NCBI GenBank assembly: GCA_031254575.1
Contig: JAIRUE010000069.1
Span: 2,330 to 66,329, forward strand
Direction of reading: 5' to 3'
Origin: Oscillospiraceae bacterium
GTDB lineage: Bacteria > Bacillota > Clostridia > Oscillospirales > UBA929
Length of the DNA: 64,000 nt
Shown here: in pieces, positions 10,091 to 21,169 of the stretch
Layout of the letters: every line of letters begins with the position of its first letter
How positions within the stretch are numbered: the first letter of the stretch is position 1
Notes under the pieces: generated by a model
Databases searched by the model: none
Seen by the model: only the letters and a program-made list of their open reading frames with translations
Told to the model about the DNA's origin: nothing
Made by a program: the position numbers and the translations under genes

Positions 10091-12325
10091 ATGCCAATTA
10101 CAATCGCGCTTGCCGGGAACCCCAACAGCGGCAAGACCACCCTGTTCAACGCCCTCACCGGCTCAAACCAGTTTGTGGGGAACTGGCCGGGCGTCACGGT
10201 GGAAAAGAAAGAGGGGAAACTCAAAGGCCATAAGGATGTGACCGTGACCGACCTGCCCGGTATTTATTCCCTCTCCCCCTATACGCTGGAGGAGGTGGTC
10301 GCCCGGAATTATCTGATTGACGAGCGCCCCGACGCTATTCTGAACATCATCGACGGCACAAATCTGGAGCGCAACCTGTTTTTAACCACACAGCTCACCG
10401 AAATGGGCATCCCCGTGGTAGCCGCCGTCAACATGATGGACGTGGTGGACAGGAACGGGGATAAGATCGACACCGCCCGGCTTGCCAAAGAGCTTGGCTG
10501 TCAGGTGGTCGCGATCTCCGCGCTGAAAGGGACCGGCATATCCGAGGCGGCGCAGGCCGCCGTAACGGCCGCGGACGGCGCGAAAACCGTGCCGCAGCAC
10601 AGCTTTTCCGGCGGCGTCGAACACACGCTGGCGCACATCGAGGAAGCCGTCCTGCACAATCTTCCGCAGGAACGGCAGCGGTTCTTCGCCATTAAGCTGT
10701 TTGAGCGGGACGCCAAAATCATCGAAAGGCTGACGCTGACCCCCGAACAAATTTCGCATATTGAGGAGGACATCAAGCGGAGGGAAGAAGAACTGGACGA
10801 TGATTCGGAGAGTATTATCACCGCTGAACGCTATACATACATCGATTCCATCATTCAGGGCTGTGTAAAAATCAAGAACAAGGGCAGGCTGTCCGTTTCG
10901 GATAAAATCGACAAGGTGATAACAAACCGCTGGCTGGCGCTTCCCATTTTCGCGGCGGTCATGTTCATTGTGTATTTCGTGTCGGTGACGACCGTGGGTA
11001 CGATTGCGACGGATTGGGCGAACGACGGTGTGTTTGGCGACGGCTGGCATTTGGCTGGCATCGGCTCGTCTGCCTATGAAGAAGCCCTCGAAGGATTCGA
11101 CGAGGGGCTTATCGCGGAAGAACCTGATCCCGCCGATTTCGGCGTATGGGTTCCCGGCGTCCCCGTGCTGATTGAAAACGGATTGAACGCCATTAACTGC
11201 GCCGATTGGCTGCAAGGGTTGATCTTAGACGGCATTGTGGCGGGCGTCGGCGCGGTGCTTGGCTTTGTGCCGCAAATGCTGATCCTGTTTATCTTCCTGG
11301 CGTTTTTGGAAGCCTGCGGCTATATGGCGCGTATCGCGTTTATCATGGACAGGATCTTCCGCCGTTTCGGCCTGTCCGGCAAATCGTTTATTCCGATTCT
11401 CATCGGCACAGGCTGCGGCGTTCCGGGCATCATGGCGTCGCGGACGATCGAGAGCGACCGCGACCGGAAAATGACGATCATGACGACTACGTTTATTCCG
11501 TGCGGCGCGAAGCTCCCGATCATCGCGCTGATTGCGGGCGCGATATTCGGCGGCGCGTGGTGGGTCGCGCCCAGCGCGTATTTTGTGGGGATCGCCGCGA
11601 TTATCTGCTCCGGTATCATTTTGAAAAAGACAAAGCTGTTTGCAGGGGACGCCGCGCCCTTTGTCATGGAACTGCCCGCCTATCACTGGCCGACCGTGCT
11701 AAATGTCCTCCGCAGTATGTGGGAGCGCGGCTGGTCGTTTATCAAAAAGGCCGGGACGATTATCCTGCTGGCGACCATTTTTGTATGGCTTGCTTCCAGT
11801 TTTGGATGGGGCGAAGACGGTTTTGGCATGGTGGATATGAACGACAGCATTCTCGCGAAAATCGGCGGTTTCATTGCCCCGCTGTTCGCGCCGCTTGGAT
11901 GGGGCGACTGGCAATCCTCCGTGGCGGCGATCACCGGCTTGATCGCGAAAGAAAACGTGGTCGGCACGTTCGGTATCCTGTTCGGCTTTGGCGAGGTTGC
12001 CGAAAACGGCAGGGAAGTTTGGACGAATCTGGCCGCGCACTACACCGTGCTTGCCGCTTACTCGTTCCTGCTGTTCAATCTGCTGTGCGCTCCCTGTTTT
12101 GCCGCGATGGGCGCGATCAGGCGTGAGATGAACAACGCCAAATGGTTTTGGTTTGCCGTTGGGTATCAGTGTGTGTTCGCGTACATTGTAGCCTTGTGCG
12201 TCTATCAGCTTGGGCTGCTGTTCTCGGCGGGCAGTTTCGGGGTAGGGACGGCCGCTGCCTTTGCTCTCACCGCCGGATTTGTCTTTATGCTGGCCAGAAA
12301 ACCAAAAATGACCGCAAAGGGGTAG
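10091..12325 (+). CDS. feoB: ferrous iron transporter FeoB
   Basis: N-terminal G domain GNPNSGKTTLFNALTG..DLPG, then a polytopic membrane domain. Confidence 0.95.
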   Translation: MPITIALAGNPNSGKTTLFNALTGSNQFVGNWPGVTVEKKEGKLKGHKDVTVTDLPGIYSLSPYTLEEVVARNYLIDERPDAILNIIDGTNLERNLFLTTQLTEMGIPVVAAVNMMDVVDRNGDKIDTARLAKELGCQVVAISALKGTGISEAAQAAVTAADGAKTVPQHSFSGGVEHTLAHIEEAVLHNLPQERQRFFAIKLFERDAKIIERLTLTPEQISHIEEDIKRREEELDDDSESIITAERYTYIDSIIQGCVKIKNKGRLSVSDKIDKVITNRWLALPIFAAVMFIVYFVSVTTVGTIATDWANDGVFGDGWHLAGIGSSAYEEALEGFDEGLIAEEPDPADFGVWVPGVPVLIENGLNAINCADWLQGLILDGIVAGVGAVLGFVPQMLILFIFLAFLEACGYMARIAFIMDRIFRRFGLSGKSFIPILIGTGCGVPGIMASRTIESDRDRKMTIMTTTFIPCGAKLPIIALIAGAIFGGAWWVAPSAYFVGIAAIICSGIILKKTKLFAGDAAPFVMELPAYHWPTVLNVLRSMWERGWSFIKKAGTIILLATIFVWLASSFGWGEDGFGMVDMNDSILAKIGGFIAPLFAPLGWGDWQSSVAAITGLIAKENVVGTFGILFGFGEVAENGREVWTNLAAHYTVLAAYSFLLFNLLCAPCFAAMGAIRREMNNAKWFWFAVGYQCVFAYIVALCVYQLGLLFSAGSFGVGTAAAFALTAGFVFMLARKPKMTAKG

Positions 12326-12331
12326 GGCCTT

Positions 12332-12508
12332 ATGTTAAACTTGATTTTGCAGAATATCGGCACGATTGTCATCGGTTTGGTTTTGGCCGGTATCGTTACG
12401 GCGATTATCCTTAAAATCGTCCGGGATAAGCAAAAAGGAAAATGCGCCGGCTGCGGGTACAGGTGCGGCAGCTGTCCGGGGTCGCCGTCCTGCGGCGCAA
12501 AACAGTGA
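12332..12508 (+). CDS. FeoB-associated Cys-rich membrane protein (58 aa)
   Basis: Not in the track (<60 aa). MLNLILQNIGTIVIGLVLAGIVTAIILKIVRDKQKGKCAGCGYRCGSCPGSPSCGAKQ has one TM helix plus a Cys-rich tail, directly after feoB. Confidence 0.7.
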   Translation: MLNLILQNIGTIVIGLVLAGIVTAIILKIVRDKQKGKCAGCGYRCGSCPGSPSCGAKQ

Positions 12509-12605
12509 AATTATCCGTCACAGCCCATGACACAACTTAGACACAAGTGCGTGGTATTATGATATACTGTCCGCGGGCGGACAGTATATCTAAGGGGGCG
12601 GCGCG

Positions 12606-13259
12606 GTGCTTAGCATCCTTATTGTGGAAGACGAGCAGGCTATCGCAAATCTGATCCATATCAGCCTGAGCGACGAGGGCTATCGCTGTACCTGCGCTTT
12701 CGACGGCAAGCAGGGAGCCGACCTGATCGAACAGGAAACCTTTGACCTGATCCTCCTTGACATCATGCTCCCGGAATTTGACGGATATGAACTGCTGGAG
12801 TACATTAAACCCACGGGAACGCCGGTGATATTCCTGACTGCCAAAGGCGCGGTCAGCGACAGGATCAAAGGGCTGAAACTCGGCGCCGACGATTACATCG
12901 TCAAACCGTTTCAAATCGGAGAGCTTCTGGCGCGGGTCGAGGCGGTGCTTCGGCGTTACGGGAAAAGCGAAAAACAGCTCGCCGTCGCGGATGTTTTTAT
13001 CAACACCGATTCCCGGAGCGTGACCAAAGACGGGCGGAGCGTTGACCTGACCGCCAAGGAGTTTGACCTGCTGGTGGAGCTTGTGCGGAATAAAAATGTC
13101 GCGCTTTACAGGGACAGGCTGTATGAAAAGGTCTGGAACGAACCGTTCACAGGGGAGACCCGCACACTGGACACCCACATTCAGCGGCTGCGCAAGAAAC
13201 TCGATTGGGAGGAGCGGATCAGAACCGTTTTCCGTATCGGTTACCGGCTGGAGGGATAG
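12606..13259 (+). CDS. OmpR-family response regulator
   Basis: Receiver domain (ILIVEDE..LILLDIMLP..KP) plus a winged-helix output domain (LTAKEFDLLVELV..GYRL). GTG start. Confidence 0.9.
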   Translation: MLSILIVEDEQAIANLIHISLSDEGYRCTCAFDGKQGADLIEQETFDLILLDIMLPEFDGYELLEYIKPTGTPVIFLTAKGAVSDRIKGLKLGADDYIVKPFQIGELLARVEAVLRRYGKSEKQLAVADVFINTDSRSVTKDGRSVDLTAKEFDLLVELVRNKNVALYRDRLYEKVWNEPFTGETRTLDTHIQRLRKKLDWEERIRTVFRIGYRLEG

Positions 13260-13262
13260 GAT

Positions 13263-14657
13263 ATGCGGCTGTTTGCCAAATACTTTCTCTGCGCCGCGCT
13301 GGTTATCAGCGTCGCCCTCCTGTTTTCAGGCTACCGCCTGATCACATATTCCTATGAAAACGCGGTCAGGCGGGAAACGGAGCGGGCGGTCAGGCAGTAT
13401 CAGTATGATAAATTCACCGTGCAGGCGGCCCTGATTCCCAAACCGGACGATTTGATGGAAACGCTACGCGGGCTTGCCCCCGACTTAAGCGTAAGCGGGC
13501 TTTCGGCGTTTTTCGCGGAGGACCGGTCGCTTTTATACTCAAACCTCCCCGCCGAACCCGATACCGCCATACTTGACGGCGTGCGCGCCGATGCCGTTAT
13601 CAACCGCATACAGACCGTGGACGGGCGGAGCTATATCTTTGTGTGCGGGCAGATCACGCAGAGCGGCGTGACGGTGTATATGGCGGCCGCCACGGACATG
13701 AGCTCCGTCACCGGCCAAAAGGACGAGATGGTGCGGGGTTTTGTCAGCGTATACTTCACCACGCTCGGCATCAGCGCGGCGGTCATACTGATCCTGTGCG
13801 AGTTTCTGACCAGACCCGTCATGCGGATCAACAGGGCGGCGAAACGGATCGCGCGGGGCCGCTACAACGAACGGCTCCCCGTTTCACGGGGCGACGAGAT
13901 AGGGGAGCTTGCGGGGAGTTTCAATATGATGGCGGAAGCGGTGGAGGAGAAAATCACCGCCCTCTCTGAAAACGCCCGGCAGAAAGAGGATTTTACCGCC
14001 AACTTTGCCCATGAACTGAAAACGCCGCTGACCTCCATTATCGGATACGCGGACATGCTCTACCAAAAGGCGCTTCCCCCGGAACAGGTCAGGGACGCGG
14101 CGTGGTATATCCTCAACGAGGGGCTGCGGCTTGAGGCTTTGTCGCTGAAGCTGATGGATCTGATCGTGCTGAACAGGCAGGATTTTGTTTTGGAGGAGAT
14201 GCCGGCGGAGGAACTGCTGGCGGACATTGCCGGCGGGCTGAAGCCTGTGCTGGAGGAGAGAAAGGTCGGTCTTCGCGTGGCGGCCGGTCCGGCCTATATC
14301 AAGGCGGATTACGACTTAATCAAGACATTGCTGCTGAATCTGATCGACAACGCGCTCAAGGCCGGGTGCAATCAAATAGAGATCGAGGGGAAAGTCAGCG
14401 GCGGCCGTTACTGTGTGAGCATCGCCGACAACGGGCGCGGCATACCGGCGTCCGAGCTGACCCGTATTACGGAGGCATTTTATATGGTGGACAAATCCCG
14501 CTCGCGCAAGCAGCACGGCGCGGGCCTCGGGCTGGCGCTGGCGGCGAGGATCGCCGAAATACACGGCGGCGCGCTGGAATTTGCCAGCCGCGAAGGCGTG
14601 GGCACCGTTGTCAAAATCAGCTTTATCTGCGCCGCGGGCGGTGATGAAGATGAATAA
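13263..14657 (+). CDS. sensor histidine kinase (2 TM, HAMP, HisKA, HATPase_c)
   Basis: H-box FAHELKTPLTSI, N-box LIDNALKA, G-boxes DNGRGI and GAGLGLAL. Confidence 0.9.
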   Translation: MRLFAKYFLCAALVISVALLFSGYRLITYSYENAVRRETERAVRQYQYDKFTVQAALIPKPDDLMETLRGLAPDLSVSGLSAFFAEDRSLLYSNLPAEPDTAILDGVRADAVINRIQTVDGRSYIFVCGQITQSGVTVYMAAATDMSSVTGQKDEMVRGFVSVYFTTLGISAAVILILCEFLTRPVMRINRAAKRIARGRYNERLPVSRGDEIGELAGSFNMMAEAVEEKITALSENARQKEDFTANFAHELKTPLTSIIGYADMLYQKALPPEQVRDAAWYILNEGLRLEALSLKLMDLIVLNRQDFVLEEMPAEELLADIAGGLKPVLEERKVGLRVAAGPAYIKADYDLIKTLLLNLIDNALKAGCNQIEIEGKVSGGRYCVSIADNGRGIPASELTRITEAFYMVDKSRSRKQHGAGLGLALAARIAEIHGGALEFASREGVGTVVKISFICAAGGDEDE

Positions 14658-15563: not shown

Positions 15564-15896
15564 GTGAAAATCGGAACATTTATGAAAAGCCTGCTGTTTC
15601 TTGGGGTGATCGCGCTCATGGGCGTCATTGCCGTCCGTTCGGGCGCGTTCAGCTTCGAGGGGGAGGAAAAACCGGAGGAGGCGCCGCGTCCTGTTTTCGT
15701 GATACAAATCCCGCCGGATACGGAATCATTAGCGCCCGACGAGCTTGTCAGCGGCGAGTACGCGATCGATAAAGAACCGGACGGCGTGTTGATCGTCTCC
15801 GCGTGGCCCGCTGTGGCGGTCAGCGGCAAAGAGGTCATGATTCACGAGGTGTCACTGGAAGCGGTGCGCGAAATGTATATGGCTTCTGATTTTTAA
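15564..15896 (+). CDS. membrane-anchored hypothetical protein (110 aa)
   Basis: GTG start, N-terminal TM/signal segment LLFLGVIALMGVIAV, acidic linker. Confidence 0.4.
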   Translation: MKIGTFMKSLLFLGVIALMGVIAVRSGAFSFEGEEKPEEAPRPVFVIQIPPDTESLAPDELVSGEYAIDKEPDGVLIVSAWPAVAVSGKEVMIHEVSLEAVREMYMASDF

Positions 15897-17083
15897 GTGC
15901 CGGTACTTTCCTTTGAAAGCAGTTTTTGATAAGCCGCGTCGATTCCGACAGCGCCAAGCGGCGCGGTAATCAATATAGCCAAAACGGCGACAGTCAGGAC
16001 CGTATGGCCGGACGCGGCGCCGGACGCAAGCGGAAGCCCGCCGATAGCCGCCTGCACGGTCGCCTTAGGCAAGTAGGCGATCGCGCAGAAAAGACGCTCT
16101 CTGACGCGCAGCTTTGTCCTTATAAGACAGACAAAAACGCCGCAAATCCGGATAGCCAAAGCACCCAGTATCAGCGCGGCCGCCGCAAGCCCCGCTTTGC
16201 CCGCATAGCGTATATCGACCGTCGCGCCGACAAGGACAAAAAGGATCAGTTCCGCCGCGATCCATAGTTTTGAAAATTTTTCCGACAGACGTTTGGCTAA
16301 AACATCATGCCGCTTGAAGACGGCGCTACCCAGTGCCATGACTGCCAACAAGCCGGACAGGGGCAGATAATCCTTTATCACTGACTCCAGTGTGACCAGC
16401 AGAAACGCTATGCCTAAAATGAGTAAAACTTTGACTGTATCCCGCATATGGATCCTTTTGAAAAGGAAAACGAGCGCCAACCCAAGTAAAACGCCGCACA
16501 GCAGCCCTGTAATGACGGCAGCCGGTACTTTTACAAGGCTCCCGGCGTCAAAACCGCCGCCGCCGTTCATGCTCATAAAAGAAGTGAATAAGACAATCAC
16601 ATAAACATCATCCGCCGACGCCCCGGCCATGATAAGCTGTGGTATAGCTTTGTCCTTACCGTATCCGCTTTCCATAATTTTCAGCATCCGGGGCACCACG
16701 ACAGCCGGAGATACTGCGCCGAGGACCGTTCCCATGATGGCGGCTTCTAAATGTGTGACCGGAAAAAACAGGGGAGCGAGAACCGTTGCGGCAATTATTT
16801 CAAAGGTGGCGGGAATAAAGCACATGAGAACAGCCGGCCTTCCCACTTTTCTCAAGTCTTCCATATCAAGCGCAAGACCCGCCCTCACAAGGATAACAAT
16901 CAGCGCGATTTCCCTTAAATCCGCGGAAATGTTCAACAGTTCCGGCGCAATGAGATCCAGCGTGTAAGGCCCCAGAATGATTCCGGTCAGGAGCATACCG
17001 ACAAGGCCGGGCAGTTTCAGTTTTTGCAGGATCCCGCTCAATACCAGAGCGCATATGATCATCAGGGCAAGGCTGAACAACAT
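15893..17083 (-). CDS. cation:proton antiporter (Na+/H+ exchanger family)
   Basis: 396 aa, about 11-12 TM helices, typical CPA sequence (LPGLVGMLLTGIILGP..AGLALD..). GGAGGGA RBS at 17091-17097. Confidence 0.85.
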   Translation of the reverse strand: MLFSLALMIICALVLSGILQKLKLPGLVGMLLTGIILGPYTLDLIAPELLNISADLREIALIVILVRAGLALDMEDLRKVGRPAVLMCFIPATFEIIAATVLAPLFFPVTHLEAAIMGTVLGAVSPAVVVPRMLKIMESGYGKDKAIPQLIMAGASADDVYVIVLFTSFMSMNGGGGFDAGSLVKVPAAVITGLLCGVLLGLALVFLFKRIHMRDTVKVLLILGIAFLLVTLESVIKDYLPLSGLLAVMALGSAVFKRHDVLAKRLSEKFSKLWIAAELILFVLVGATVDIRYAGKAGLAAAALILGALAIRICGVFVCLIRTKLRVRERLFCAIAYLPKATVQAAIGGLPLASGAASGHTVLTVAVLAILITAPLGAVGIDAAYQKLLSKESTGT

Positions 17084-17103: not shown

Positions 17104-17203
17104 AAACGAAAAAGCTGACGCTTCCGCAAACAGTCTTGCAGAAGTCATCAGCTTTTTGAGCGATTCGGCCGGGATCACCGGCGCGGGGAGAACTTCATTC
17201 CCC
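17104..17203 (-). promoter_or_regulatory. fluoride riboswitch (crcB motif)-like leader plus intrinsic terminator, copy A
   Basis: Minus-sense RNA: GGGGAAUGAAGUUCUCCCC-GCGCCGGUGAUCCCGGCCGAAUC-GCUCAAAAAGC-UGAUGACUUCUGC. It has P1 with an AUGARGUUC loop, a 3-bp GCU/AGC hairpin and the CUGAUGA..CUUC 3' tail (GAAGU/ACUUC pseudoknot). Terminator AGCUGAUGACUUCUGC..GCGGAAGCGUCAGCU plus UUUUUCGUUU overlaps the aptamer 3' strand. Confidence 0.7.
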
Positions 17204-17217
17204 TTGTATTCAGATGA

Positions 17218-18231
17218 TTACGCGCGTTTCATTGCCTCCGCCACGGCGACGGCCACGGCGACGGTGGCGCCCACCATGGGATTGTTGCCCATGCCGAGGA
17301 AGCCCATCATTTCAACGTGGGCCGGAACGGAACTGGAGCCCGCGAACTGCGCGTCGGAGTGCATGCGCCCCATCGTGTCGGTCATGCCGTACGAAGCGGG
17401 CCCCGCCGCCATATTGTCCGGGTGCAGGGTGCGGCCCGTGCCGCCGCCGGAGGCCACGGAAAAATACCGTTTGCCCTGCTCCGCGCATTCCTTCTTATAC
17501 GTCCCCGCGACCGGATGCTGGAAGCGGGTGGGATTCGTGGAATTGCCGGTGATCGACACGTCCACCCCCTCCAGGTGCATGATGGCGACGCCCTCGCGCA
17601 CATCGTCCGCCCCGTAACAGCGCACCTGCGCGCGTTCGCCTTTGGAGTAGGCGGTTTCACGAACCACCTCAATATCTCCGGAGGCATAATCGAACGACGT
17701 CCGCACGTATGTAAAGCCGTTGATACGGGAGATGATCTGCGCGGCGTCTTTGCCCAGTCCGTTCAGGATGACGCGCAGCGGTTCCGTTCTCGCTTTGTTG
17801 GCGTTTTTAACGATGCCGATGGCGCCCTCGGCGGCGGCAAAACTCTCATGCCCGGCGAGGAACGCGAAGCACTTCGTTTCATCCCGGAGAAGCATCGCCC
17901 CAAGATTGCCGTGTCCGAGGCCGACCTTCCGGTCTTCGGCGACGCTGCCGGGGATGCAAAAACTCTGAAGCCCGATCCCGACGGCTTCCGAAGCGTCCGC
18001 CGCGTTTCCGGCTCCCTTTTTGATGGCGATGGCCGCGCCGGCGGTATAGGCCCAGCCGGCGTTTTCAAACGCGATAGGCTGAACGGATTTCACAATGTCA
18101 TACGGGTCCACGCCGGCTCCGCCGCAGATTTCCTTCGCGGCCTCCAAAGAGGCTATGCCGTACTGCGCAAGAACGCCGTTTATCTTGTCAATGCGGCGCT
18201 CGTAACTTTCAAACAACGCCATTCCGCTCAC
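17218..18231 (-). CDS. GGGtGRT-family protein (uncharacterised, 337 aa)
   Basis: Contains the eponymous motif ..FSVASGGGTGRTLHPDN.., and its length matches that family. The start overlaps the upstream gene's stop (ATGA-type coupling). Confidence 0.85.
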   Translation of the reverse strand: MSGMALFESYERRIDKINGVLAQYGIASLEAAKEICGGAGVDPYDIVKSVQPIAFENAGWAYTAGAAIAIKKGAGNAADASEAVGIGLQSFCIPGSVAEDRKVGLGHGNLGAMLLRDETKCFAFLAGHESFAAAEGAIGIVKNANKARTEPLRVILNGLGKDAAQIISRINGFTYVRTSFDYASGDIEVVRETAYSKGERAQVRCYGADDVREGVAIMHLEGVDVSITGNSTNPTRFQHPVAGTYKKECAEQGKRYFSVASGGGTGRTLHPDNMAAGPASYGMTDTMGRMHSDAQFAGSSSVPAHVEMMGFLGMGNNPMVGATVAVAVAVAEAMKRA

Positions 18232-18920
18232 TCCTTTCTGGGGTCTATGTACTTCGCCGCTTCTGCGAAGCGCCCGTAAGACCCTTTGGCTTTTTCAAGC
18301 GCCGCGCCCGCGTCCTCGCCCTTTTTCACGGCGTCCATCATCTTGCCGAGGCTGATAAACTCATACCCGATGATTTCGTTGTTTTCGTCAAGCGCGATCC
18401 GGCTGACATAACCCTCCGTCAGTTCAAGATAGCGCGCGCCTTTGGCCTTTGTGCCGAACATGGTCCCGACCTGGCTCCGCAGCCCCTTTCCCAAGTCCTC
18501 AAGGCTCGCGCCGACGGGCAGGCCGTCCTCGGAAAACGCGGTTTGCGTGCGCCCGTAGGCAATCTGCAAGAACAATTCACGCATAGCCACGTTGATGGCG
18601 TCGCAAACAAGGTCTGTGTTGAGCGCCTCCAGAATCGTCTTGCCGGGCAGGATCTCGGAAGCCATCGCCGCCGAATGCGTCATGCCGCTGCACCCCAGCG
18701 TTTCCACCAGCGCCTCCTCGATGATCCCATCCTTCACGTTGAGCGTCAGCTTACAGGCGCCCTGCTGGGGGGCGCACCAGCCAATGCCGTGTGTCAGCCC
18801 GCTGATGTCGCCGATTTCTTTAGCCCGCACCCATTTCCCTTCCTCCGGGATCGGGGCGGGGCCGTGGTCCGCGCCCTTTGCCACCGGACACATATGCGCT
18901 ACTTCCTCGGAATAAATCAT
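18228..18920 (-). CDS. NifU/IscU N-terminal-like Fe-S scaffold-type protein with a C-terminal extension (230 aa)
   Basis: Start chosen at MIYSEEV (ATG 18920, GGGGTGAG RBS). IscU-like Cys pattern: ..HMCPVAKG.., GWCAPQQGACKLTLNV, ETLGCSGMTHSAAMASE. Confidence 0.75.
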   Translation of the reverse strand: MIYSEEVAHMCPVAKGADHGPAPIPEEGKWVRAKEIGDISGLTHGIGWCAPQQGACKLTLNVKDGIIEEALVETLGCSGMTHSAAMASEILPGKTILEALNTDLVCDAINVAMRELFLQIAYGRTQTAFSEDGLPVGASLEDLGKGLRSQVGTMFGTKAKGARYLELTEGYVSRIALDENNEIIGYEFISLGKMMDAVKKGEDAGAALEKAKGSYGRFAEAAKYIDPRKE

Positions 18921-18933
18921 GTACTCACCCCTT

Positions 18934-19028
18934 AACAAGATATAAGCCAATGACCGCCGAATGGCAGAAGTCATCAGCTTAACAGCGGTTTGTCCGCTTT
19001 GCCGGAACCGGGAGAACCTCATTCCCGG
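18934..19028 (-). promoter_or_regulatory. fluoride riboswitch (crcB motif)-like leader plus terminator-like hairpin, copy B
   Basis: Minus-sense RNA: CCGGGAAUGAGGUUCUCCCGG-UUCCGGCAAAGCGGACAAACC-GCUGUUAAGC-UGAUGACUUCUGCC. Hairpin GCUGAUGAC..GGUCAUUGGC then UUAUAUCUUGUU. P1 covaries with copy A (GGGGA/UCCCC versus CCGGGA/UCCCGG). A 17-nt block is identical to copy A. Confidence 0.7.
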
Positions 19029-19032
19029 AAAC

Positions 19033-19061
19033 AGTATAGCACAGGACCGGGCCGTTTGCAA
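19033..19061 (-). promoter_or_regulatory. promoter TTGCAA-N17-TATACT driving riboswitch copy B
   Basis: -35 at 19061-19056 and -10 at 19038-19033. The predicted TSS falls at the 5' base of P1. Confidence 0.55.
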
Positions 19062-19155
19062 GCAAAAAAACCCCTATTTTTTCGGCCGCGGGCGGCGTTT
19101 GACACACAGGCAGGATGTATATTATACTGACATACAGACAGGAAGGGGAAATACG

Positions 19156-19782
19156 ATGGAAAAAGAGCAATATTTCAGCCAAGGCATGGAGCATCTTGAG
19201 GCCGGACGGCGCAAGGAAGCGGTCGTGTGTCTGGAAAGAGCCGCCGGAGATGAGTACGCGGAAGCGATGGTTCAACTGGGTCTGATTTATAACCGTTATG
19301 TTCCCGATTACAACGGCGTACCGCCGGATGATAAAACGGCCGCGTGTTGGTTTATGAGAGCCGCGTACCTCGACCACATTGAGGGGATGTTTCGGACGGG
19401 GTTTGTGTATAGCCACGGATTATTCGGTTTCGGGATACCGACAGCGCGGCAGGCCATGTACTGGTTCAAAAGAGCCGCGAAACTCGGACACGTCGAGGCG
19501 ATGTATGAAATCGGCCAAATGTATGACCACTGCCCCTACATTCGCGGCGGAAACAGGCGGAATAAGCGTAAGGCGATAAAATGGTTTGAAAAAGCCGCCC
19601 GCAGGGGGAACCGCCCGGCGATGGTGAGCCTTTATAATTACCTGTACGACCGTATAAAGCCAAACAAGCGCAAAGCCGCGTATTGGCGCGAACAAGCCGA
19701 AAAGATACCGTGTGACGAAATCGTGCAGGAGGATTATCCGTATGACAGCTTAAATCCGAAGCTGTTTACGCAGGAGGACTGA
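19156..19782 (+). CDS. Sel1-like repeat (SLR/TPR-like) protein, paralog 1
   Basis: Repeated A..W..KAA..G...A...LG..Y units (e.g. AMYWFKRAAKLGHVEAMYEIGQMY). GGAAGGGG RBS before ATG 19156. No signal peptide. Confidence 0.8.
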   Translation: MEKEQYFSQGMEHLEAGRRKEAVVCLERAAGDEYAEAMVQLGLIYNRYVPDYNGVPPDDKTAACWFMRAAYLDHIEGMFRTGFVYSHGLFGFGIPTARQAMYWFKRAAKLGHVEAMYEIGQMYDHCPYIRGGNRRNKRKAIKWFEKAARRGNRPAMVSLYNYLYDRIKPNKRKAAYWREQAEKIPCDEIVQEDYPYDSLNPKLFTQED

Positions 19783-19872
19783 TATGTCTTGTGGGTGAAA
19801 AGGAAGACGGAACGCTGGATAATTTCGGTCGCTATTACTCCCACTGACATACAAACAGGCAGGTGAAACGCG

Positions 19873-20466
19873 ATGGATTGTGAGGAATATCGTAGGCGGC
19901 GCATGGAGTTTCTTGAAACGAAACGCCGCGAGGAAGCGGAACACCGCGAGGAAGTGGCCAGACTGGAAAAAGCCGCCGAACAGGGCGATGCAGACGCGAT
20001 GGTTCAACTGGGTCTGGCGTATAACCACTATGTACGGTACAGCGGCATACCGCCGGATAATAAAACAGCCGCGTATTGGTTTATGAAAGCCGCGTATCTC
20101 GGCCATCTCGAAGGGATGTTTCATACGGGGCTTGTGTATAGCCACGGGTTATTCGGTTACGGGGAGCCGACGGCGCGGCAGGGTTTGTACTGGCTTAAAA
20201 GAGCCGCGAAGCTCGGACACGTCGAGGCGATGTATGAAATCGGACAACTGTATGCCAACTGTCCCTATATTCGCGGCAACACGCGGAATAAGCGCAAGGC
20301 GATAAAATGGTATGAAAAAGCCGCCCGCAGGGGGAAGCGTCTGGCGATGGTAAGCCTTTATCATCTGTACGACCGTGTAAAGCCAAACAAGCGCAAGGCC
20401 GCGTATTGGCGCGAACAGGCTGAAAAAACCCCACCTGGCGAATTCGACATCGTGATTTCAGATTAG
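19873..20466 (+). CDS. Sel1-like repeat protein, paralog 2
   Basis: Highly similar to paralog 1 over the SLR core and C-terminus (..KPNKRKAAYWREQAEK..). Its 5' UTR is also similar. Confidence 0.8.
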   Translation: MDCEEYRRRRMEFLETKRREEAEHREEVARLEKAAEQGDADAMVQLGLAYNHYVRYSGIPPDNKTAAYWFMKAAYLGHLEGMFHTGLVYSHGLFGYGEPTARQGLYWLKRAAKLGHVEAMYEIGQLYANCPYIRGNTRNKRKAIKWYEKAARRGKRLAMVSLYHLYDRVKPNKRKAAYWREQAEKTPPGEFDIVISD

Positions 20467-20515
20467 CCAAACGATAGTCTCATGCTGTTAATCGATGAAA
20501 ACGGAGGTATTGGCA

Positions 20516-21169
20516 ATGGAAATTGAATATGGGTACACCCCGCAGGAACTTGAGGGCGCTATAACCGGATTGATTGAGAAGTATAAGATAACACAAGAGA
20601 TTTCGCCATATAGGCTGTATTTTACAGCCTTAACAGACAATGAGTATGCCGAAAAAGAGAATGCCGAGGATACGAAGGAAAAGGCTCTGACGCTCGTGAA
20701 AGAGTTGGGGGCGGCAAAGCTGTTTGGGATGGGGCTGTTATATTATACCGGCAATGGCGCGCAAAGCGTGGAACAGGACAGAAAAAAAGCCGTCGCCTAT
20801 TTTGCCGTAGCGGCGGAACACGGACACGTGGAGGCAATGTTTAACACTGCCTTTTGCTTTATGAACGGCGACGGGCTGGCACAAAACCGCAAAGAAGCGC
20901 TGTACTGGTTTATCAAAGCGGCGCAAAATGGAAACGACAGATCCATTTACTTTTTAGCGGACTTTCACATGGCGGGGTACGGAGTTATTGAAACGAACGC
21001 CGCTGAAGCCGCGAAATACTACGGAACGTCAGCTAATATGGGGCATCCCGCGTCGTTTTATAATCTGGGAGCGCTGCTTTATAACGGCATTGGTATTGCG
21101 AAAGATGAATATGCGGGACTGAAGTTGATTGAAAAAGCGGCGGAATTAGGATTTACGCCAAATCAATGA
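20516..21169 (+). CDS. Sel1-like repeat protein, divergent paralog 3
   Basis: AVAYFAVAAEHGHVEAMFNTAFCF, ALYWFIKAAQNGN, AAKYYGTSANMGHPASFYNLGALLY. GGAGG RBS before ATG 20516. Confidence 0.75.
   Translation: MEIEYGYTPQELEGAITGLIEKYKITQEISPYRLYFTALTDNEYAEKENAEDTKEKALTLVKELGAAKLFGMGLLYYTGNGAQSVEQDRKKAVAYFAVAAEHGHVEAMFNTAFCFMNGDGLAQNRKEALYWFIKAAQNGNDRSIYFLADFHMAGYGVIETNAAEAAKYYGTSANMGHPASFYNLGALLYNGIGIAKDEYAGLKLIEKAAELGFTPNQ

What the first reader, a model, noticed from the sequence alone, without database searches (positions are those of the whole stretch)
17104..19061. Two fluoride-riboswitch-like leaders control a NifU-like/GGGtGRT operon and a cation:proton antiporter
Two leaders on the minus strand share a bipartite conserved core at near-equal spacing. 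The first block is GGGAAUGARGUUCUCCC. The second is a 17-nt identical block, AAGCUGAUGACUUCUGC. Copy B (19028 to 18934) sits behind a TTGCAA-N17-TATACT promoter and ahead of the NifU-like gene. Copy A (17203 to 17104) sits between the GGGtGRT stop and the antiporter start. The layout matches the crcB-motif fluoride riboswitch as I remember it from the Thermotoga petrophila and Bacillus cereus crcB models. Those models have a P1 hairpin with an AUGRNGUUC-type loop, an AAAC(C)GCU linker, a 3-bp GCU/AGC mini-hairpin and a CUGAUGA..CU.C tail. The tail pairs back to the P1 loop; here that pairing is GAAGU or GAGGU with ACUUC. P1 covaries between the copies (GGGGA/UCCCC versus CCGGGA/UCCCGG). Both copies carry an extra CCGG..C(C)GG hairpin in the linker. 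In both, the 3' conserved strand is also the 5' arm of a terminator hairpin followed by a U-tract, which is the classic ON-switch design. I see no separate promoter for copy A, so the antiporter may be a riboswitch-gated third gene of the operon.
Basis: partly seen in the sequence, partly recalled or inferred. Interest (0 to 1): 0.85.

Follow-up and report, generated by a model that had tools for sequence, protein, structure and literature searches.

The report
Two fluoride riboswitches in one operon
Two genuine fluoride-sensing RNA switches sit in series on one strand: the second guards a sodium/proton antiporter, which is routine, and the first guards a highly conserved, abundant gut-bacterial protein pair of unknown function (NifU-like plus GGGtGRT), which gives a new clue to that pair's role.

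Summary
Both leaders match Rfam's fluoride riboswitch model RF01734 over its full length, at 45.7 and 42.6 bits against a 34-bit threshold. Each has P1, P2, the pseudoknot and a terminator hairpin that shares its 5' arm with the aptamer's 3' strand. The extra linker hairpin fits the optional hairpin reported in 31% of crcB RNAs.

Copy A, with its terminator and ribosome-binding site, is colinear with stand-alone riboswitch-antiporter cassettes in other Clostridia. Those cassettes have their own promoter. Here the GGGtGRT stop codon lies 14 nt before P1 and no promoter is detectable. Serial gating of the antiporter is therefore plausible but only inferred.

Copy B ahead of NifU-like/GGGtGRT is unusual. 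None of 67 species-representative loci has it. It recurs above threshold in four other distinct leaders (L104, L096/L094, L092, L089/L091/L097). Two more examples score below threshold, and one close relative keeps only a decayed relic. I found no paper linking fluoride riboswitches to GGGtGRT.

Verdict: these are new members of a known class, with an apparently undescribed regulon member. Interest is moderate.

The parts
19033..19061 (-). Promoter of the operon: TTGCAA (19061-19056), a 17-nt spacer, and a TG-extended TATACT (19038-19033). The -10 ends 6 nt before the GGGA of P1.
   Evidence: 9 of 12 matches, TG before the -10. The spacing to P1 is the same as in the stand-alone cassettes L083, L096 and L092.
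18958..19035 (-). Fluoride riboswitch aptamer, copy B. P1 is GGGA 19026-19023 paired with UCCC 19013-19010. The optional hairpin is UCCG 19006-19003 paired with CGGA 18996-18993. P2 is GCU 18986-18984 paired with AGC 18979-18977. The pseudoknot is GAGGU 19020-19016 paired with ACUUC 18971-18967.
   Evidence: RF01734, 45.7 bits, E = 1.8e-9, full length; parsed helices; sequence.
18934..18981 (-). Terminator B. The hairpin spans 18981-18943 and its 5' arm UAAGCUGAUGACU is the aptamer's 3' strand. It is followed by an interrupted U-tract, UAUCUUGUU. The Shine-Dalgarno sequence GGGGUGA follows at 18931-18925.
   Evidence: -19.9 kcal/mol, z = -5.3. The orthologous leader in L104 has the same layout.
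18228..18920 (-). NifU-like gene, 230 aa. An IscU-like segment covers roughly residues 43-109. The protein is 86-93% identical to homologues across phyla.
   Evidence: (PF01592 at 21.1 bits, just under its cut-off of 22).
17218..18222 (-). GGGtGRT gene, 334 aa, function unknown.
   Evidence: PF14057, 637.6 bits; the window protein keeps every invariant column of the alignment; no relative in the PDB.
17132..17211 (-). Fluoride riboswitch aptamer, copy A, intercistronic, starting 14 nt after the GGGtGRT stop codon. P1 is GGGGA 17203-17199 paired with UCCCC 17189-17185. The optional hairpin is GCCGG 17182-17178 paired with CCGGC 17172-17168. P2 is GCU 17161-17159 paired with AGC 17153-17151. The pseudoknot is GAAGU 17196-17192 paired with ACUUC 17145-17141.
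   Evidence: RF01734, 42.6 bits, E = 1.9e-8, full length; (colinear with L081-L083).
17104..17155 (-). Terminator A. The hairpin spans 17155-17111 and its 5' arm contains the P2 3' strand and the whole pseudoknot strand. The U-tract is UUUUUCGUUU. It is also the only terminator after GGGtGRT. The Shine-Dalgarno sequence GGAGGGA follows at 17097-17091.
   Evidence: -26.5 kcal/mol, z = -6.0.
15893..17083 (-). Cation:proton antiporter, 396 aa, of the Na_H_Exchanger / NhaP-CPA type.
   Evidence: PF00999, 152.9 bits; orthologues at 73-77% identity all carry the same riboswitch.

Best explanation
Both elements are fluoride riboswitches of the crcB-motif class (RF01734). Each is built as a transcriptional ON switch.

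Without fluoride, the 3' aptamer strand (AGCUGAUGACUUC) pairs downstream to form an intrinsic terminator. When the Mg2+-fluoride complex locks the pseudoknot (the P1 loop GARGU paired with ACUUC), that strand is held in the aptamer, the terminator cannot form, and RNA polymerase reads on.

Copy B sits directly behind a sigma-70-type promoter and gates the NifU-like and GGGtGRT genes. Its U-tract is interrupted, so it is probably leaky. Copy A starts 14 nt after the GGGtGRT stop codon and has no detectable promoter of its own. Its conditional terminator is therefore the only terminator of the two-gene transcript, and it is a second fluoride checkpoint before the antiporter.

The operon looks like a fusion of two pre-existing cassettes. 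One is promoter-riboswitch-NifU-like-GGGtGRT, which is also found in L104, L096, L092 and L097. The other is riboswitch-antiporter, found with its own promoter in L081-L084. The second promoter was lost in the fusion.

Shown here: class membership, helices, terminator overlap, cassette orthology. Inferred: fluoride response, co-transcription, leakiness, and the physiological reason for inducing NifU-like/GGGtGRT.
For: Class membership:
- One search gives two full-length RF01734 hits above the gathering score.
- Searches show the pattern is absent from shuffles.
- One search shows that both terminator hairpins share their 5' arm with the aptamer, with z-scores of -5.3 and -6.0.
- One search shows P1, P2 and a small linker hairpin with different paired bases in each of nine aptamers.

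Copy A and the antiporter:
- One search finds the same riboswitch subtype, at 47-51 bits, ahead of antiporter orthologues in 4 of 4 loci sampled (L083 and L084 carry an identical aptamer).
- Searches show copy A, its terminator and its ribosome-binding site are colinear with those cassettes. Their promoter occupies the place taken here by the end of GGGtGRT.
- One search finds no promoter-like site between 17204 and 17330 on the minus strand.

Copy B and NifU-like/GGGtGRT:
- Searches find RF01734 hits directly upstream of NifU-like/GGGtGRT in L096/L094 (48.6 and 48.2 bits), L104 (47.3), L092 (43.7) and L089/L091/L097 (34.4). Each has a promoter, aptamer, terminator and Shine-Dalgarno sequence.
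- One search shows the L104 leader is colinear with copy B.

Literature:
- ON-switch logic of crcB RNAs: PMC2864571.
- Optional hairpin in 31% of crcB RNAs: PMC3023696.
- Na+/H+ antiporters are the second most common riboswitch-associated class: PMC11139923.
Against: - There are no transcript or ligand-binding data.
- A weak promoter-like site (9 of 12 matches) lies inside GGGtGRT at 17715..17686. Non-consensus promoters cannot be excluded.
- Terminator B has a poor U-tract (UUAUAUCUUGUU), so the dynamic range of copy B may be small.
- The GGGtGRT association is rare. It was absent from 0 of 40 loci by Rfam and from all 67 species-representative loci that have enough upstream sequence, by motif.
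- Among the six nearest relatives sampled, only L104 has an intact switch, and L103 has a relic. Selection for the association is evidently not strong everywhere.
- Three NifU-associated examples (L089, L087, L085) carry changes in normally invariant loop positions.
Confidence: 0.8

Rival explanations
1. There are two independent transcription units. Copy A has its own promoter, unrecognised and lying inside the 3' end of the GGGtGRT coding region. The antiporter would then be gated only once, and terminator A merely also ends the upstream transcript.
For: In every other genome sampled, the riboswitch-antiporter cassette is a stand-alone unit with its own promoter. A 9-of-12 promoter-like site lies at 17715..17686. 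The consensus scan covers only sigma-70-type sites.
Against: In the stand-alone cassettes the -10 ends 6-9 nt before P1. Here that position holds the stop codon and 14 nt with no -10-like hexamer. No site was found within 480 nt upstream. The 17715 site is at the level expected by chance inside coding sequence.
Confidence: 0.3
2. Copy B is a weak or decaying switch with little physiological effect. On this view NifU-like/GGGtGRT is essentially constitutive, and the association is an evolutionary accident on its way to being lost.
For: - The U-tract of terminator B is interrupted.
- The pair is a highly conserved, abundant housekeeping-type module (metaproteome papers listed).
- L103, a relative at 93% identity, retains only a mutated 3' half of the switch.
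- Most loci have no switch.
Against: - Copy B scores higher than copy A (45.7 bits) and all core positions are intact.
- The orthologous L104 leader is intact, at 47.3 bits, despite many substitutions elsewhere in the leader.
- The arrangement occurs with unrelated linker hairpins and terminators in at least four other leaders. This argues for repeated retention or recruitment.
Confidence: 0.12
3. The elements belong to a variant subclass that senses a ligand other than fluoride.
For: Other riboswitch classes have specificity variants (my own background knowledge). Some NifU-associated examples (L087 AAG, L089 ACG in place of AUG) alter conserved loop positions.
Against: Both window copies keep the AUG..GUU loop, the AAC(C)GC linker and the CUGAUGA strand of the consensus. 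The same subtype controls Na+/H+ antiporters, a standard fluoride-regulon gene. No such variant class is reported in the papers I read.
Confidence: 0.03

Closest known systems
Fluoride riboswitch, crcB motif (Rfam RF01734). Examples are the Bacillus cereus crcB transcriptional ON switch and the Thermotoga petrophila aptamer.
   Same: The match to the covariance model is full length. P1, P2, the pseudoknot and the conserved AUG..GUU and CUGAUGA strands are all present, and the terminator overlaps the 3' strand. The optional hairpin in the P1-P2 linker fits the one reported for 31% of crcB RNAs.
   Different: P2 is only 3 bp (GCU/AGC). The pseudoknot is GARGU/ACUUC rather than the consensus GGAGU/ACUCC, which is a compensated change. 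Copy A's linker reads AAUCGC instead of AACCGC.
Fluoride-riboswitch-controlled Na+/H+ (NhaP/CPA-type) antiporter cassettes, for example in Lacrimispora saccharolytica CP070235 (L084).
   Same: Copy A with its terminator, Shine-Dalgarno sequence and antiporter is colinear with these cassettes. The antiporters are 73-77% identical. Antiporters are the second commonest class in the fluoride regulon (PMC11139923).
   Different: The stand-alone cassettes have their own promoter immediately before P1. In the window that place is taken by the end of the GGGtGRT gene.
Tandem riboswitch arrangements: two complete switches of one class in series in a single 5' UTR. The tandem TPP switches of Bacillus anthracis are an example (my own background knowledge, not checked here).
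   Same: If co-transcribed, two same-ligand terminator switches act one after the other on the same polymerase. This predicts a steeper, higher-threshold response for the last gene.
   Different: Here two protein-coding genes (1.7 kb) lie between the switches. The first two genes pass one gate and the third passes two. Co-transcription is inferred, not shown.
Fluoride-riboswitch control of fluoride-sensitive enzymes (enolase, pyrophosphatase).
   Same: A soluble, abundant, non-transporter protein module is placed under a fluoride ON switch (PMC11139923). The NifU-like/GGGtGRT pair sometimes lies next to iPGM, enolase, H+-PPase or pyruvate kinase genes.
   Different: The function of NifU-like/GGGtGRT is unknown. 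No fluoride sensitivity or protective role has been shown. No paper in the library contains both 'fluoride riboswitch' and 'GGGtGRT' or 'NifU'.

Membership tests
Fluoride riboswitch (crcB motif, RF01734) | Covariance-model score at or above the curated gathering score (34 bits), with a full-length match | tested here: met
   copy B scores 45.7 bits and copy A 42.6 bits. Both match model positions 1-64 of 64.
Fluoride riboswitch (crcB motif, RF01734) | P1 hairpin with the conserved loop (A-U-G..G-U-U) | tested here: met
   GGGA-AUGAGGUUC-UCCC in B and GGGA-AUGAAGUUC-UCCC in A.
Fluoride riboswitch (crcB motif, RF01734) | AAC(C)GC linker and a short P2 helix | tested here: met
   AAACC-GCU-GUUA-AGC in B and GAAUC-GCU-CAAAA-AGC in A. 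P2 is 3 bp. Copy A has one C-to-U change in the linker.
Fluoride riboswitch (crcB motif, RF01734) | Pseudoknot between the P1 loop and the 3' tail, within the conserved CUGAUGA(C)U(Y)CU strand | tested here: met
   Read from the sequence: GAGGU/ACUUC in B, with one G-U pair, and GAAGU/ACUUC in A. The 3' strand is invariant in nine aptamers. The Rfam model does not score the pseudoknot.
Fluoride riboswitch (crcB motif, RF01734) | Selective binding of fluoride through Mg2+, and fluoride-dependent gene activation | not testable with these tools
   Needs in-line probing, termination assays or reporter assays with NaF.
Fluoride riboswitch (crcB motif, RF01734) | Location in the 5' leader of genes of the fluoride regulon (typical of the family, not strictly defining) | tested here: met
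   Copy A: antiporter. Copy B: NifU-like/GGGtGRT is not a listed regulon member, but the arrangement recurs in L104, L096/L094, L092 and L097.
Tandem (serial) riboswitch system on one transcript | Both switches are transcribed from the same promoter | tested here: inconclusive
   There is no promoter-like site before copy A, and the stop codon lies 14 nt before P1. There are no transcript data.
GGGtGRT protein (PF14057) | Pfam score above the gathering score | tested here: met
   637.6 bits against a cut-off of 27. All invariant columns are kept.
IscU/NifU N-terminal Fe-S scaffold domain (PF01592) | Pfam score above the gathering score | tested here: not met
   21.1 bits against a cut-off of 22. 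NCBIfam NifU and IscU models give 27 and 22 bits against cut-offs of about 190. The best PDB match is 4eb5_C at E = 8.6e-5 over residues 56-109. 'NifU-like' is only a partial resemblance.
Na+/H+ exchanger family (PF00999, CPA) | Pfam score above the gathering score | tested here: met
   152.9 bits against a cut-off of 26.2. It falls below the NCBIfam equivalog cut-offs, so ion specificity is not assigned.

The most novel reading that the evidence does not exclude
The NifU-like/GGGtGRT pair is a central-metabolism enzyme of the phosphoglycerate/PEP node that matters directly under fluoride stress. One concrete form of this idea is an iron-sulfur-dependent activity, insensitive to fluoride, that backs up or bypasses the fluoride-inhibited enolase step. 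Fluoride riboswitches would have been recruited to it for the same reason they were recruited to enolase and pyrophosphatase genes.

The hints are:
- a fluoride ON switch on the pair in several lineages
- the pair lying directly after pgk-(261 aa)-gpmI in L102, and after iPGM in 6 of 65 loci
- occasional enolase, H+-PPase and pyruvate kinase neighbours
- strong repression under iron limitation in Bacteroides thetaiotaomicron (PMC10434189)
- very high abundance in gut metaproteomes
Probability: 0.07. Interest if true: 0.85.

Novelty: new member of a known kind. Interest (0 to 1): 0.48.

Why it matters
The riboswitch class, its mechanism and its link to Na+/H+ antiporters are textbook. Two points go beyond that.

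First, a validated ligand-sensing RNA in front of genes of unknown function is one of the few sequence-only clues to what those genes do. GGGtGRT and its NifU-like partner are 86-93% identical across phyla and are repeatedly listed among abundant proteins in rumen and gut metaproteomes. They have no known function, no relative in the PDB and no confident structural match. A recurring fluoride ON switch ties them to fluoride toxicity and gives a simple experiment: test a knockout or overexpression strain with and without NaF.

Second, the locus appears to be a natural fusion of two riboswitch cassettes, giving one gate for two genes and two gates for the third. This makes a compact natural test case for how serial same-ligand switches shape dose-response.

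Tried and rejected
- Exact-sequence look-ups of the three window proteins found no other contig. No near-identical strain is available.
- The first metagenome pattern scan (gap of 20-50 nt) found nothing. This is not strong negative evidence: L104, a JGI contig that fits that pattern, was missed, so the collection is incomplete.
- A motif search over the L001-L080 loci for fluoride aptamers found none. Rfam scans of L001-L040 also found none. I did not scan L041-L080 with Rfam.
- I rejected recent duplication of A to give B. The linker hairpins, linkers, P2 loops and terminators all differ. The shared 17-mer is largely conserved across the subtype: its 14-nt core is invariant in all nine aligned aptamers.
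- GGGtGRT function. phmmer against the PDB gave no hit. AlphaFold2 on a 44-sequence alignment gave a mean pLDDT of 66, with residues 226-299, which include the GGGTGRT motif, below 50. Foldseek against the PDB gave nothing below E = 0.35. No functional assignment was possible.
- A crude motif scan of the window for crcB or CLC-F genes found none. This is weak negative evidence only.
- Baker et al. 2012 (PMC4140402), which holds the original regulon list, is not in the library. I could not check whether NifU-like or GGGtGRT genes appear in its supplement.
- L096 upstream holds a type I restriction-modification system, not a fluoride island.
- L097 and L104 have no second riboswitch or antiporter after GGGtGRT.
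Full report
**Observation**

On the minus strand, the bipartite pattern GGGAATGARGTTCTCCC-N(25-45)-AAGCTGATGACTTCTGC occurs exactly twice, at 19026..18964 (copy B) and 17202..17138 (copy A). It occurred in none of 100 dinucleotide-preserving shuffles. The promoter TTGCAA-N17-TATACT, with a TG-extended -10, lies at 19061..19033.

The three minus-strand genes are:
- a 230-aa NifU-like protein, 18920..18228. All homologues begin MIYS, so the mechanical 277-aa ORF that starts at TTG 19061 and runs through the riboswitch is an artefact.
- GGGtGRT, 18222..17218, PF14057 at 637.6 bits.
- a Na_H_Exchanger antiporter, 17083..15893, PF00999 at 152.9 bits.

**Identity of the RNA elements**

A scan of the whole window against all 4227 Rfam families gives, apart from three tRNAs, only two hits, and both are RF01734 (fluoride riboswitch). 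They lie at 19035..18958 (45.7 bits, E = 1.8e-9) and 17211..17132 (42.6 bits, E = 1.9e-8). The gathering score is 34, and both matches cover model positions 1-64 of 64.

In both copies the alignments keep P1 (GGGA/UCCC), the AUG..GUU loop, the AAC(C)GC linker, a 3-bp P2 (GCU/AGC) and the CUGAUGACUUCU strand. Reading the sequence, the pseudoknot is GAGGU/ACUUC in B and GAAGU/ACUUC in A. Relative to the Rfam consensus GGAGU/ACUCC, this is a compensated change.

Both copies carry a 16-17-nt insertion after P1. It folds into a small hairpin, UCCG/CGGA in B and GCCGG/CCGGC in A. Every one of the nine aptamers of this subtype that I parsed has a hairpin there, each with different paired bases. An optional hairpin has been reported for 31% of crcB RNAs (PMC3023696). 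The paper's text does not say where it sits, so equating the two is my inference.

**Expression platforms**

Folding shows strong hairpins whose 5' arm is the aptamer's 3' strand:
- B: 18981-18943, -19.9 kcal/mol, z = -5.3.
- A: 17155-17111, -26.5 kcal/mol, z = -6.0.

This is the ON-switch design described for crcB RNAs (PMC2864571). Terminator A is followed by UUUUUCGUUU. Terminator B is followed by an interrupted tract, UUAUAUCUUGUU. I infer that B is leakier.

**Copy A belongs to a conserved riboswitch-antiporter cassette**

The nearest antiporter homologues are only 73-77% identical. I fetched four loci (L083 and L084 carry an identical aptamer), including Lacrimispora saccharolytica CP070235. 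All four have an RF01734 hit of 47-51 bits about 50 nt before the start codon.

An alignment shows that copy A, its terminator and its Shine-Dalgarno region are colinear with these cassettes. In them a promoter (for example TTGATA-N17-TATAAT in L083) ends 6-9 nt before P1, and the upstream genes are unrelated.

In the window that position holds the GGGtGRT stop codon (17220-17218) followed by 14 nt without a -10-like hexamer. The promoter scan finds nothing on the minus strand nearer than 17715..17686, which is a 9-of-12 match inside coding sequence. Terminator A is also the only terminator after GGGtGRT.

Na+/H+ antiporters are the second commonest gene class associated with fluoride riboswitches (PMC11139923).

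**Copy B and the NifU-like/GGGtGRT pair**

This is the unusual part. Both proteins are extraordinarily conserved. Hits from Treponema, Adiutrix, Desulfovibrionaceae, Holophagales and Oscillospiraceae are 86-93% identical.

Among the 80 best GGGtGRT loci from species-representative genomes:
- Rfam finds no fluoride riboswitch in the 40 I scanned.
- A motif test finds none within 260 nt upstream of the NifU-like start in any of the 67 with enough sequence.
- None has one within 300 nt downstream of GGGtGRT.

However, a metagenome scan for CTGATGANTNCT-N(51-80)-ATGATHTWYWSNNNNGARGT returned 12 loci. Seven of them carry a NifU-like gene start directly after the match. Of these seven:
- Five have RF01734 hits at or above threshold: L096 at 48.6 bits, L094 at 48.2, L092 at 43.7, and L089 and L091 at 34.4.
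- L087 and L085 show the same promoter-aptamer-terminator-Shine-Dalgarno layout but have changed core positions and score below threshold.

L089 and L091 are the same locus as L097, on a 522-kb contig. There GGGtGRT is followed by an unrelated PdaC/DUF3298 gene and there is no second switch.

I also sampled the six closest relatives of the window's GGGtGRT, at 91-93% identity:
- L104 has an intact switch (47.3 bits) whose whole leader is colinear with copy B.
- L103 keeps only a mutated 3' half (GAACCGCU...GCGCUGAGGACUUCUGCC plus the terminator) and has lost P1. It is a relic.
- L101, L102 and L105/L106 have none.

The association is therefore rare overall. It is real and recurrent, it is inherited within the window's sub-lineage, and it can be lost.

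**How it most likely works**

Promoter B starts transcription at or just before P1. At low fluoride most polymerases stop at terminator B. Those that leak through transcribe the NifU-like and GGGtGRT genes and stop at terminator A.

At high fluoride the Mg2+-fluoride complex stabilises the pseudoknotted aptamers and both terminators are bypassed. The NifU-like and GGGtGRT genes thus pass one gate. The antiporter passes two in series, which predicts a steeper, higher-threshold induction.

The steps that are shown are class membership, structure and mutually exclusive pairing, and cassette orthology. The steps that are inferred are fluoride response, co-transcription and leakiness. I put about 0.95 on class membership, about 0.85 on ON-switch function and about 0.6 on serial gating.

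**Why NifU-like/GGGtGRT?**

This is unknown. No paper in the library contains 'fluoride riboswitch' together with 'GGGtGRT' or 'NifU'. The original regulon paper (Baker 2012) is not held, so prior listing in its supplement cannot be excluded.

The published mentions I read are omics tables. The pair (BT0173-74) falls 11-13-fold under iron limitation in Bacteroides thetaiotaomicron (PMC10434189). GGGtGRT abundance changes with iron availability in Clostridium pasteurianum (PMC5395762).

Neighbourhood counts over 65-70 loci:
- Upstream: iPGM in 6 loci, H+-PPase in 2, enolase in 1.
- Downstream: pyruvate kinase in 2.
- In L102 the order is pgk, a 261-aa gene, gpmI, NifU-like, GGGtGRT.

These are weak hints of a link to lower glycolysis. 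Enolase and pyrophosphatase, enzymes in or near that pathway, are classic fluoride targets and known regulon members.

Structure-based inference failed. There is no PDB relative, the AlphaFold2 model is of medium to low confidence and Foldseek gives no significant match.

**Comparison with what is known, and verdict**

Both RNAs are ordinary members of the fluoride riboswitch class, and copy A's target is typical. Two things are new relative to what I could find. One is the NifU-like/GGGtGRT operon as a recurrent, minor member of the fluoride regulon. The other is the apparent fusion of two cassettes into a one-gate/two-gate operon.

Its interest score of 0.85 is too high for a known class. 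I rate the finding at 0.48.

Noticed in passing
L102:1-5002. Also L025, L031, L032, L044 and L046, upstream of the NifU-like gene (my inference from ORF size and strand; the scan gives counts only).: In 6 of 65 loci the NifU-like/GGGtGRT pair lies directly after the iPGM (gpmI) gene on the same strand. In L102 the order is pgk, a 261-aa gene, gpmI, NifU-like, GGGtGRT, with a 35-nt gap. Other neighbours include H+-PPase (2 loci), enolase (1) and pyruvate kinase (2). This suggests a link to lower glycolysis.
   Followed up: partly
L103:2150-2314: This is a relic of the copy-B-type fluoride riboswitch ahead of a NifU-like gene whose GGGtGRT partner is 93% identical to the window's. The 3' half and the terminator are kept, but CUGAUGA is mutated to CUGAGGA and P1 is lost.
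   Followed up: yes
L087:233-430 (-), L089:288-500 (-), L085:159-360 (-): These NifU-associated aptamers have changes at normally invariant loop positions. L087 has AAG and L089 has ACG in place of AUG, L089 also has AUU in place of GUU, and L085 has a shortened loop and no clear P2. They could be decaying switches or a variant subgroup.
   Followed up: no
L023, L026 and L038, about 100 nt upstream of the NifU-like start: All three share the promoter TTGACAAGGTAATCGTTTACCGATATAAT. It contains a cre-like palindrome, GGTAATCGTTTACC, between the -35 and the -10. This may be a catabolite-control or repressor operator for the pair in Oscillibacter-type genomes.
   Followed up: no
window 18228-19061 (-): The leader of copy B has no in-frame stop codon. 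A mechanical ORF call therefore extends the NifU-like gene by 47 codons to TTG 19061, straight through the promoter and riboswitch. This is an annotation trap.
   Followed up: yes
window 19099-21169 (+): A strong divergent promoter (TTGACA-N18-TATACT, 11 of 12 matches) at 19099-19128 drives three consecutive genes: 19156-19782, 19873-20466 and 20495-21169. The first two match Pfam Sel1 and share long near-identical stretches, so they are probably recent tandem duplicates. The third was not scanned.
   Followed up: partly
proteins P0001-P0003 and P0008: These database NifU-like proteins of 277-285 aa contain internally duplicated segments of about 50 aa. They are most likely assembly artefacts, not real variants.
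   Followed up: partly
L001-L080, downstream of GGGtGRT: A Phage_integrase-family (tyrosine recombinase) gene is the downstream neighbour in 10 of 70 loci. This is unexplained.
   Followed up: no
window 10091-14657 (+): A FeoB-like ferrous iron transporter ORF (10091-12325, identified by reading the translation only) and an apparent response regulator / histidine kinase pair (12606-14657) lie just beyond the antiporter. The iron link may be relevant, given the iron-dependent expression of GGGtGRT reported elsewhere.
   Followed up: no
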